This document shows positions 6,001 to 9,000 of a stretch of DNA of 54,166 bases, piece after piece. Numbering within the stretch: the first letter of the stretch is position 1; the number at the start of each line of letters is the position of its first letter. The DNA lies in NCBI GenBank assembly GCA_963978095.1, contig CAXBQP010000014.1:1-54166 (forward strand), given 5' to 3'. Position numbers: made by a program. Origin of the DNA: an uncultured bacterium (lineage in GTDB: Bacteria; Gemmatimonadota; Gemmatimonadetes; Gemmatimonadales; Gemmatimonadaceae).

Positions 6001-9000
6001 ACGCCCGTGGCCAGCTCGAAGGCGCGGATGTTGCGCCCCTCGCGGCCAATGATGCGCCCCTTCATCTCGTCCTTGGGGAGCGACACCGCGCTGACGGTGA
6101 TCTCGGCCGTGTGTTCGGCGGCGATCCGCTGCACGGCCAGCGCCACGATCTTCTTCGCCTCGCGATCCGCGGTGCGCTTGGCGGTGTCACGAATCTCACG
6201 CAGGCGGTTCGCCGCGTCCGCGTGCGCCTCCTCCTCCATCCGGCGCACCAACTCGGCCTTGGCTTCCGTGGCGGACAAGCCGGCCAACTGTTCGAGCCGA
6301 CGCCGCTCATCCGCCACCAGCTTGTCGAGTTCGGCCTGCCGCTCCTCGACCGTCTTCTCCTTGCGGCCCAGATCGCTGGCGCGGCGCGACAGGTCCTTGT
6401 CGCGGCTTTCGATCACTTCGAACTTCCGGTCCAGCACCCCCTCGCGCTCCTGGAGGCGCTTTTCCTCGCGCTCGACCTCGTCGCGGCGCTTGCGGGCCTC
6501 CGCCTCCCACGTCTCGCGGGCACGCATGGCCTCTTCCTTGCCCGAGAGCACGGCCGCCTTCCGCAGCCCATCCGCCTCGCGCTCCGCCTCGCCTACGATC
6601 CGCTTCCCCAGCTTTTCCGCCGTATCCCCAGCGGCCTTGCGTGCTTCCAACTCCGCCGAGCGCCCCGCGCCGCGTCCGGCACGGAATGCCACCGCACTGC
6701 CGACCGCGCCCAACACACCGAGCGCGATCGCGAGCATCAACATCGGATCCATTGTCTCTATACTCCAAGGCAGCGCCGCCACGCCGACAGGGCCGGGCGC
6801 GCCGCGGTATTCAAGGACCTTCCCGGAAATCGGCGACGCAGACCGCACAACGGGGTCGGACCGTCCGGTCGAGCGCCGTCGAAGGGCACTGAACGGGGCG
6901 GGCTAACTCCTCTTGTGGCTTGGACCTACGTCAGCCGACTTCCTCGAATGGAAAGTACCGTTTCGGCAACAGGTTGGCAATGCGCAAAACGGGGTGCCCA
7001 GCCCATGGCTGGACACCCCGAACTGCCACCCGATTTCGCAAGCCCGCCCCCAAAAGTGCTACCGTCCCTCGCCGCGCTTCCCCGGCGGTAACCACCGTCT
7101 GAGTTCGCTACTGAGCCCTGCCATCTGCGACGCCACCTCAGCGGCCGCGTCACGCTCGCGGAACAGTTCCTCCGTGATGGACAGCGCCGCCAGGATGGCC
7201 GCCTTGTGCGACTCCGTCAGACTGGCGCTGCCGATCACCTTGCGAATGGTGGCGTCCACGTGCGCGGCCACCTCACGCGTCCGCTCCGGGGGCACTTCAC
7301 TCTTGATCGTGTACTCTTCGCCGCAGATCGTGACCTTGGTGCTGTGCTTGACCGCGCTCATCGTCCCTCTCCCGCGTGTTGCTGGCGAAGGAACCGGACC
7401 CGATCCAACAACGCCCGCGTGCGCTCCGCCGACGTCTCGAGTCGCGCCTTCAGGAGGGCATTCTCCTGTTCCAACATCGACACCCGCTCCTCGGCGCGGG
7501 CGTCTCCGCCACCCCCACTGGTGGCAATCGCCTTCAATCGCGCCTCCGCGGTCTGCGCCCGTTTCCGGAACGCCGCCAGCTCCTCGCCCAGGTTGCGGAC
7601 GAGCACCTCCAACTCGCGGAATGCCGCGTCAGGCCGTACGGGGGACGACACCGAGTTCGGTCTCCAAGGTCTTGAGGAGCATGGCGCGACGACCGTCGAT
7701 CTCCTTGTCGCGTAGAGTGCGTTCCGGATGCCGGAAGGTCAACCGCCACCCGATGGACCGGGTCCCCCCGGGGAGTCCCTTCCCACGATATTCATCGAAG
7801 ACCACCAACGACTCCAGCAGCTCTCCCGCCGCGCTCCGCATCACGGCCTCGACGGTCGCGGCGGAGATCTGCATCGGCACCAATAGCGCCAGGTCGAACT
7901 CGGCCGCCGGCATCGCGGGCAGCGGGGCATAGCGCACTGGCGTCACGGCTGGGCCGCTGGCGGCCGCCGTCACATAGCGATGCTCCCCCTTGGGCGCCGC
8001 GAACTCCGCTGGCATCACCCCGAGGGTGAGTTCCACCCCGAAGGCCGCCGAGGCCCAGTTCGGCGCATCCAGGCGAGTGAGCGCACGAACATGACCACGC
8101 GTGTGGCCGTCCACGGACACGCGCCACAGGCAGTCGTCGGCCTCGTCGCGGGCGGCCTCCTCACACGCAACGGTCGCACCCGGCCAGGCCGCGTGCGCCA
8201 TCCGCGTCGCCAAGGCCTTGGCGTCCCAGGCATCGAACGCGGGAGGCTTGGGCTCGGTGAAATGCGGTGGTCGCGAGGCCCCCATCAGGAGCGCCGCCGC
8301 GCGGATCTCTTCCCCACCCACCGTCTCCGTGGCTTCCCGCGCGAGGAAGGCGGTCCCCACCTCGAACAACCGCACATTCCCCTGCATGCGGTTGAGATTG
8401 TACTCCGCGCGACGACACAGCGTATCGAGCAGGTCCAGCCGCAGATACGCCTCGTCCTGCGCCAACGGATTGAGCACCCGCGCCTGGAACTCCGCACGCT
8501 GCGGGGAGAACGGAAGCGGACGCACCTCAAGAAGCCCCTCCGCCACGAGGACATCGCGCACGCGACGCCCCATCGTGTGCAACGGATGATCCGGCACGTT
8601 ACCAGGTCGGGCGCCCACCAGCGTGTCCGGCAAGCGATCGTAGCCGCGCAATCGCGCGACCTCTTCCACCAGATCGACGTCGCGCGCCACATCGTGGCGC
8701 CACGACGGCACCGCCACGCTGCACGCCTCGCCGGCCCCCTGCACATCGAAACCGATGGACGTCAGCAGCGCCACGACCTCGTCCGCCGGCACGGTATCGC
8801 CCAACAGGCGCGCGACGCGCGACGGCGCAAAGTGCACGCGCGGCTTGGGCGCGGGTTCGGCGCCGACCAGGAGCGTCGCTTCGACCGTCCCGCCCGCGAT
8901 CTCGGCAACGTACGCCGCGCCGCGCGAGAGCAACGCGGGGAGCGCGGCATCGTCCACCCCGCGCTCGAACCGATAGCTCGCATCGGTCGACAGGCCGAGG

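What a model noticed while it worked through the whole genome (the two positions that open the first line are those of the whole stretch)
6753..6985. Conserved structured RNA leader in front of RNase Y (rny) in Gemmatimonadaceae
The 5' leader of rny holds an undescribed ~75-nt motif (6861-6934) behind a conserved TTGCC-17-TAnnnT promoter: GUAG..CAAG..GUUAG, then a covarying hairpin with a CUUCGNC loop. It stays with rny when zapA is moved away, so it is a cis element, likely for RNase Y autoregulation, and not the 6S RNA usually found at zapA.
Evidence so far: 14 of 27 zapA-downstream spacers fit the motif. Its 9 pairs are 86% paired, 4 have compensatory changes, 0 of 500 shuffles reach the score, and slid controls give 30-44%. 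A covariance model gives 14 strong hits (E<=3e-8) among 25 family genomes and only weak ones elsewhere. All 14 lie upstream of rny on its strand, and 4 have no zapA within 1.5 kb. The 6S and 6S-Flavo models do not hit it. Paper search 34 gave no such motif.
(Added by a program. Inside this text positions count along the whole contig: contig position 1 is position 1 of the stretch shown here. "Call 12" and the like, gene names such as g00115 and contig names such as C1 are that model's own, and its searches are not shown. The text may have been shortened before it was handed on; [...] marks where a part breaks off. The agent that wrote the report below was given it as the finding of a first reader that could run no searches.)

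Follow-up and report, generated by a model that had tools for sequence, protein, structure and literature searches.

The report
Structured RNA leader before RNase Y
A family of soil and water bacteria keeps a folded RNA segment, not found in the RNA family catalogue, at the front of the message for its RNA-cutting enzyme RNase Y; it is very probably a control element, but what it responds to is untested.

Summary
The element is real and larger than reported. A sigma70-type promoter (6980-6952) precedes a 119-nt irregular rod (6943-6825), a small hairpin, the ribosome site and rny. On 44 non-redundant homologs, 13 pairs are 89% paired, 8 show two-sided changes, and a C·C mismatch is invariant. 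All 73 model hits at E<=1e-4 in 121 family genomes lie just upstream of rny. It is not the family's 6S RNA: a separate 6S was found in 121 of 121 genomes, and no leader-6S homology was detected. The deepest-conserved part is the 5' strand (UAGGU-N17-UUA), which persists in 19 genomes with a different or missing hairpin. folD follows rny in 63 of 63 scorable loci, so the regulated target is ambiguous. RNase III and RNase J were not found in the family, so the Bacillus autoregulation route cannot apply as it stands. A cis-acting leader is very likely (~0.85); RNase Y feedback is the best single mechanism (~0.4) but has no direct evidence. No Rfam family or paper matched.

The parts
7059..7361 (-). 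zapA (upstream gene; last of pheT-zapB-like-zapA)
   Evidence: Pfam ZapA E 1.8e-14
6986..7020 (-). GC-rich hairpin followed by four U: possible terminator separating zapA from the rny promoter
   Evidence: read; not listed by the terminator scan, which needs 5 T
6952..6980 (-). sigma70-type promoter TTGCCA-17-TACTTT; transcription start inferred near 6945
   Evidence: same arrangement in 67 of 82 rny-upstream regions, spacer 17 in 65 of 67; start site not measured
6825..6943 (-). 119-nt irregular rod, 5' end paired to 3' end
   Evidence: z -3.47; own 5'/3' strands pair 10.2 kcal/mol better than swapped strands (SD 4.9; CDS control -0.8) over 44 sequences; median z -1.94, 21 of 44 below -2
6903..6930 (-). 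Core 5'-strand motif CGUAGGU-NN-WWG-N10-AGUUAG with fixed spacing (UAGGU-N17-UUA)
   Evidence: invariant columns without indels in 66 sequences selected on these words; kept in 19 genomes whose apical part differs; unique in the genome, 31.6 vs next 14.5 bits
6861..6901 (-). Upper rod: covarying pairs flanking an invariant C·C mismatch (6895/6867), 5-bp stem, 7-nt loop C-U-W-C-G-Y-C (6884-6878)
   Evidence: C·C in 35 of 35 in-register sequences and 39 of 45 held-out ones; independent two-sided changes on an RNase Y tree: 3, 6, 11, 9, 4 at the five most variable pairs
6770..6824 (-). Pyrimidine-rich linker (6824-6806) and small hairpin (6805-6770) before the ribosome site
   Evidence: the architecture recurs, the sequence varies
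6757..6766 (-). Shine-Dalgarno GGAG (6766-6763) and rny-specific AUAGA (6761-6757)
   Evidence: AUAGA before the rny start in 48 of 80 family loci and 8 of 15 sister-family loci, versus 5 of 585 control ORFs (one is rny) and 0 of 64 zapA starts
5163..6752 (-). rny, RNase Y (N-terminal region, KH, HD)
   Evidence: Pfam PF12072, PF00013, PF01966
4295..5194 (-). folD, overlapping the rny end; followed by an xseA-like ORF, xseB and a polyprenyl synthase
   Evidence: adjacent to rny in 63 of 63 scorable leader loci; xseA named from recall of the translation, not scanned

Best explanation
The element is the structured 5' untranslated leader of the rny-folD operon in Gemmatimonadaceae, most likely serving feedback control of RNase Y through mRNA decay. 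Shown: own promoter, fixed position, selected RNA pairing, separateness from 6S. Inferred: the rod buries the 5' end and presents conserved internal-loop residues (UAGGU, AAG, AGUUAG, the C·C stem) as a docking site for a protein, most simply RNase Y itself. The enzyme then cuts the one conserved AU-rich, mostly unpaired stretch (AUAGA, between SD and AUG), inactivating its own message when free enzyme is in excess. This works like E. coli rne hp2/hp3 (recruit, then cut elsewhere) rather than the B. subtilis route through RNase J1. Probability of a cis-acting leader is about 0.85; of this mechanism about 0.4.
For: Position: 71 of 73 hits at E<=1e-4 lie 63-155 nt upstream of the rny match; the other two run into the rny N-terminus at contig ends. 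104 of 107 cores from further loci have rny downstream. It stays with rny when zapA is 6.5-24 kb away in 3 genomes. Structure. No U-tract terminator follows the rod, whereas the family's 6S is followed by a strong hairpin. Two metatranscriptome contigs from one study (6655-6923, 6690-6907; depth 3-4) bridge the leader into the rny coding region (weak). AUAGA is rny-specific, predicted 60% unpaired, and occurs twice in 9 of 11 leaders of another family. Precedent: B. subtilis RNase Y cuts its own 160-nt UTR (PMC10303841, abstract and Discussion read). E. coli RNase E binds leader stem-loops whose internal loops matter (PMC13692253, abstract). rne, pnp and rnc autoregulate (PMC3997798, passages).
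Against: Nothing here shows RNase Y binding or cleavage. folD is always co-located, so the signal could be one-carbon status. RNase Y is reported to have a weak consensus (PMC11780869, abstract), which fits poorly with invariant nucleotides. The partner strand of the core motif is not conserved, and in several divergent members the core folds locally instead of in a rod (residual -4.0, SD 3.4, n=14; no long-range pairing in 4 of 18). 23 of 119 rny-bearing family genomes lack the element (12 seen, 11 inferred from spacers <=113 nt), as do the other families.
Confidence: 0.4

Rival explanations
1. A ligand-sensing switch (an orphan riboswitch candidate, e.g. for a folate or purine intermediate) or a site for another RNA-binding protein, controlling translation of rny-folD by opening or closing the SD hairpin.
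For: folD is adjacent in 63 of 63 loci. Invariant residues sit in loops. The 5' CGUAG can pair with the apical loop in 85% of cells. The SD is predicted mostly paired (0.23 unpaired, 30 sequences).
Against: The pseudoknot has no two-sided change, 500/500 shuffles equal it, and the central pair fails in 26 of 44. No known riboswitch family scores at E<=10. There is only one copy per genome. The apical domain is replaced in 19 genomes, and folD follows rny equally where the leader is absent.
Confidence: 0.17
2. The 5' motif is a DNA site (operator or second promoter) in the initially transcribed region; the rod is only a stabilising 5' stem-loop.
For: Only one strand is conserved, with a rigid 17-nt spacing. 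It keeps its distance from the promoter even where the rod is replaced or deleted, e.g. G085 with a 91-nt UTR.
Against: No second site in the genome (31.6 vs 14.5 bits), unlike a regulon. The motif is not a good palindrome. It does not explain the invariant C·C mismatch with covarying neighbours or the G·U pairs.
Confidence: 0.15
3. Cross-regulation: RNase E/G, not RNase Y, recognises the leader and cuts at AUAGA, balancing the two endonucleases.
For: RNase E/G is present. RNase III was not found in 0 of 91 genomes of this and seven other families, and RNase J was below cut-off in 6 of 6, so two endonucleases remain. AUAGAU fits the RNase E preference (A/G)N|AU (recalled, no call).
Against: No direct data. 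The motif is short, and an AU-rich spacer may simply aid translation.
Confidence: 0.12
4. A second, highly diverged 6S-like RNA left in the ancestral zapA-6S-rny slot, binding RNA polymerase as a free RNA or as part of the rny mRNA.
For: Rfam-threshold 6S RNAs lie directly after zapA in 10 of 10 class hits, and between zapA and rny in 2 of them. The element is a rod starting at the transcript's 5' end. B. subtilis rny mRNA co-purifies with RNA polymerase (PMC11077062, section 30 read).
Against: A conserved 6S lies elsewhere in 121 of 121 family genomes (113 by DNA at E<=2e-8; 8 by model) and away from rny in 29 of 32 other class genomes. So 6S left the slot before this family arose. Profile comparison scores 7.6 against a null mean of 9.1. 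The 6S model has no hit on leaders in 28 sources, and the leader model none on 12 6S loci. The 6S hallmark words are absent.
Confidence: 0.07

Closest known systems
E. coli rne 5' UTR (hp2, hp3) autoregulatory leader
   Same: Long structured leader of the main decay endonuclease gene; stem-loops with conserved internal loops (PMC13692253 abstract; PMC3997798 passages).
   Different: No sequence or model similarity (no Rfam hit); here one long rod, specific loop nucleotides are conserved, and the gene is rny. Binding is not shown here.
B. subtilis rny autoregulation (PMC10303841)
   Same: Same gene, own promoter, UTR of similar length (160 nt vs 158-211 nt), SD within structure.
   Different: The Bacillus target region is 76% AU with one stem-loop and relies on RNase J1. 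Here the leader is a GC-rich covarying rod and RNase J was not found above cut-off.
6S RNA (RF00013) and 6S-Flavo
   Same: Same genomic slot in one other family of the class; rod with a closing stem.
   Different: Shorter; no detectable homology; no terminator; the family's 6S is a separate, highly conserved gene.
rncO and pnp leaders (RNase III-processed duplexes)
   Same: Long duplex in a nuclease gene's leader.
   Different: RNase III was not found in 0 of 26 family genomes plus this one, so that mechanism is unavailable.
ZTP and THF riboswitches
   Same: Would suit folD in the operon (association recalled).
   Different: No Rfam hit at E<=10; the candidate pseudoknot lacks covariation.

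Membership tests
6S RNA | Score against RF00013 / 6S-Flavo | tested here: not met
   No 6S family listed at E<=10 on 6740-7070; the only own-genome RF00013 hit is on contig C2
6S RNA | Homology to the lineage's own 6S | tested here: not met
   Profile score 7.6 vs null 9.1±1.4; nhmmer best E 0.62; model R2 no hit on leaders
6S RNA | Large central bubble between two stems | tested here: inconclusive
   The largest internal loop has 4 nt or fewer on its shorter side in 42 of 44 leaders, but MFE folds also collapse the bubble of the true 6S
6S RNA | Location downstream of zapA | tested here: met
   True in most genomes, but it follows rny when the genes separate
6S RNA | Abundant free RNA, binds sigma70 holoenzyme, templates pRNA | not testable with these tools
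   Only low-depth contigs were available
Ribonuclease autoregulatory leader (rne hp2/hp3 type) | Lies in the 5' UTR of the nuclease gene | tested here: met
   73 of 73 strong hits; promoter upstream
Ribonuclease autoregulatory leader (rne hp2/hp3 type) | Conserved stem-loop with internal loops | tested here: met
Ribonuclease autoregulatory leader (rne hp2/hp3 type) | Nuclease binds or cuts it and expression responds to nuclease level | not testable with these tools
   Needs experiment
RNase III processing duplex (rncO/pnp type) | RNase III encoded in the genome | tested here: not met
   PF00636 0 of 26 family genomes and 0 in G000; control rings in 8 of 14; PF14622 0 of 6
Known riboswitch classes (ZTP, THF, T-box and others) | Score against the Rfam model | tested here: not met
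Riboswitch (new class) | Tertiary pairing supported by covariation | tested here: inconclusive
   CGUAG:loop 85% pairable, but no two-sided change
Riboswitch (new class) | Ligand-dependent structural change | not testable with these tools
   Needs probing
uORF / leader peptide attenuator | Conserved start codon in frame with the invariant UAG | tested here: not met
   10 of 44 in frame, against 14 and 13 in the other frames

The most novel reading that the evidence does not exclude
The leader is a new class of sensor: a riboswitch or protein-read switch, possibly closing the CGUAG-loop pseudoknot, that ties RNase Y and FolD output together. It would couple global mRNA decay to one-carbon status in a lineage that appears to run RNA turnover without RNase III and RNase J.
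Probability: 0.12. Interest if true: 0.85.

Novelty: new variant of a known kind. Interest (0 to 1): 0.52.

Why it matters
How RNase Y picks its targets is open, because its mapped sites show only a weak consensus. A natural, strongly conserved leader on its own gene, with covarying structure and a candidate cut site, would be a ready test substrate. It also marks Gemmatimonadaceae (cultured members exist, recalled) as a setting where RNA decay seems to run on RNase Y and RNase E/G alone. If the element answers to folate instead, it is a new riboswitch candidate. As it stands it is one more well-supported orphan motif confined to one family.

Tried and rejected
6S or 6S-derived: rejected. Pseudoknot CGUAG with the loop: pairable but without covariation; left open. 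Local helix UAGGU:AGUUA: 71.6% paired, 368/500 shuffles equal it, and the +1 slide scores higher; rejected. uORF ending at the invariant UAG: rejected. RNase III site: enzyme not found. Regulon or alternative-sigma motif: no second site in the genome; the ECF papers were seen only as a listing. tRNA-Arg anticodon mimicry (7-nt loop with NCG, recalled): position 37 is a pyrimidine in 40 of 44; unsupported, not excluded. T-box-like UGGN-ACC words occur only in one subgroup. RNAalifold on the full MAFFT alignment found only 3 pairs because the 3' strands misalign, so register-based and strand-swap tests were used; a structure-aware aligner was not installed. Fold asymmetry between strands was uninformative (sense more stable in 26 of 44). 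RNA data: the absence of contig cover over zapA is no evidence. The weak sister-family hit (G221, E 4.5e-4) has no RNase Y ORF among those listed around it. Other genes with AUAGA before the start showed no evident link to RNA metabolism (read by eye).

Full report
Context. On the minus strand the window carries pheT, a zapB-like ORF, zapA (7361-7059), a 306-nt spacer, rny (6752-5163), folD, an xseA-like ORF, xseB and a polyprenyl synthase. Rfam finds only two tRNAs in the window and nothing relevant in the spacer at E<=10.

Observation. Folding shows more: the inferred 5' end pairs with 6834-6825, giving a 119-nt rod (z -3.47, 0 of 200 shuffles). I fetched the 80 best rny loci from the GTDB collection and 49 from a class sample. 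Among 82 usable family regions (window included; 4 loci dropped as too short), 67 have a TTGCnn-17/18-TAnnnT promoter followed by TAGGT...TTA. The UTRs are 158-211 nt (59 with a called start) and share one layout: rod, pyrimidine linker, small hairpin, SD, AUAGA, start codon.

Structure. After removing 11 sequences with another apical part and collapsing at 85% identity, 44 remained. They align almost without gaps. Thirteen pairs are 89.2% paired, with 89 two-sided cells; 0/500 shuffles reach that, and slid controls give 26-41%. The structure was drawn from these same sequences, so two further tests matter. On an RNase Y tree, Watson-Crick-to-Watson-Crick switches occur independently 3, 6, 11, 4 and 9 times at five pairs. 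In 45 held-out sequences (<90% identical to training; one is a chance match, and the two top pairs were fixed by the search pattern) ten pairs are 89% paired and the C·C mismatch is kept in 39. The lower rod cannot be aligned by sequence, but own strands pair 10.2 kcal/mol better than swapped ones (SD 4.9; coding control -0.8).

Distribution. Model R1 hits 83 of 121 family genomes at E<=0.01, 63 of them full-length at E<=5.6e-10 (some of these genomes also supplied training sequences; G086 and G103 are unpublished genomes and are in these counts). Of 73 hits at E<=1e-4, 71 lie 63-155 nt upstream of rny and two run into the rny start at contig ends. zapA is 6.5, 7.8 and 23.8 kb away in three genomes and on another contig in four. 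Outside the family 1 of 109 genomes gave a weak hit.

The core is the 5' strand. Of 42 rny-bearing genomes without a model hit at rny I read 31. Nineteen still carry UAGGU-N17-UUA or a close variant at the usual distance from the promoter, with a different or missing apical hairpin; 12 lack it; the 11 unread ones have spacers of 113 nt or less. So about 96 of 119 have the element or its core. In these divergent members the rod is less well supported. The core has no second site in this genome. This one-strand conservation is unexplained and keeps a DNA-level reading alive.

Not 6S. The slot is the ancestral 6S position: in an 81-genome class sample 10 hits pass the RF00013 threshold, all just after zapA, two of them between zapA and rny (see also PMC7641849 passages on zapA-ssrS). 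But this genome has a sub-threshold RF00013 hit on another contig with promoter, rod and terminator, which aligns column for column with those 6S RNAs (one search includes unpublished G029, one search does not). It is found in 113 of 121 family genomes by DNA search at E<=2e-8 and in the other 8 by model. In 111 genomes compared it is never near rny: other contig, or at least 480 kb away in the 8 on the same contig. It is also away from rny in 29 of 32 genomes of other families. Leader and 6S show no homology.

Mechanism. The element is placed to act on the rny-folD message. A second feature, AUAGA between SD and start codon, is rny-specific (48 of 80 family loci, 8 of 15 in the sister family, 5 of 585 control ORFs, 0 of 64 zapA) and appears twice in 9 of 11 leaders of another family. 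The enzyme set is unusual: RNase E/G is present, RNase J is below cut-off in 6 of 6, and RNase III was not found in 91 genomes of eight families but was in 9 of 10 genomes of four others. Nuclease genes commonly control their own mRNA (PMC3997798, passages). B. subtilis RNase Y does so by cutting its UTR and early ORF (PMC10303841, abstract and Discussion), E. coli RNase E by binding leader stem-loops (PMC13692253, abstract), and S. aureus RNase Y is positioned by a nearby hairpin (PMC11321564, abstract). I therefore favour docking of RNase Y on the rod and cutting near AUAGA (0.4). Each step after 'structured leader' is inference. folD follows rny in 63 of 63 scorable leader loci, so a metabolite or protein switch remains a real rival.

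Expression. Two contigs from two metatranscriptome runs of one study cover 6655-6923 and 6690-6907 at depth 3-4. They bridge leader and coding region, but contigs show neither strand, ends nor level, and DNA carry-over is possible.

Novelty. No Rfam 15 family matches. Paper searches for 6S+zapA+rny and 6S+Gemmatimonad returned nothing; listings showed no such motif. The main texts of PMC11109978 and PMC8632094 do not mention Gemmatimonad or rny, nor does the one readable supplement of the latter. The supplements of PMC11109978 and PMC5737381 could not be read and could hold a matching motif; most subscription journals are not searched.

Verdict. A real, covariation-supported, family-restricted leader RNA, not 6S, apparently undescribed; its function is inferred from position and precedent. 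Interest 0.52.

Noticed in passing
G000:C2:134803-134954 (-), locus L081: The family's 6S RNA: ~150 nt, own promoter and terminator, below the Rfam threshold (26.1 bits) yet found in 121 of 121 family genomes and 29 of 32 other class genomes; here between a GNAT gene and rhomboid-queD-folE-like genes. My searches found no paper on 6S in this phylum.
   Followed up: yes
phylum sample: RNase III (PF00636) was not found in 91 genomes of eight Gemmatimonadota families, but was in 9 of 10 genomes of four others. Family f4, which has it (1 of 1), gave no rny match in 10 genomes.
   Followed up: partly
L118, L121, L127, L128, L132, L135-L139 (family f7): A different rny leader with its own promoter, two AUAGAU copies and a terminator-like hairpin with a U-tract between them, suggesting attenuation.
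   Followed up: no
L025, L027, L029, L034, L039, L040, L219: A Gemmatimonadaceae subgroup with promoter TTGCGG-17-TACGTT lacks the motif and has another leader with AUAGAUC twice.
   Followed up: no
window 6928-6918 (-): GGU-NN-AA-GY could form a T-loop-like or tetraloop module (G-Y and U·G pairs compatible in most sequences); motif definition recalled, not tested.
   Followed up: no
L221 (G138): Keeps the apical hairpin but has lost the 5' core, the reverse of the 19 core-only cases.
   Followed up: no
L265: A contig labelled Casimicrobiaceae carries a typical leader and Gemmatimonad-like rny, probably misbinned.
   Followed up: partly
window 46045-46117 and 47444-47517 (+): Two tRNA genes.
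   Followed up: no
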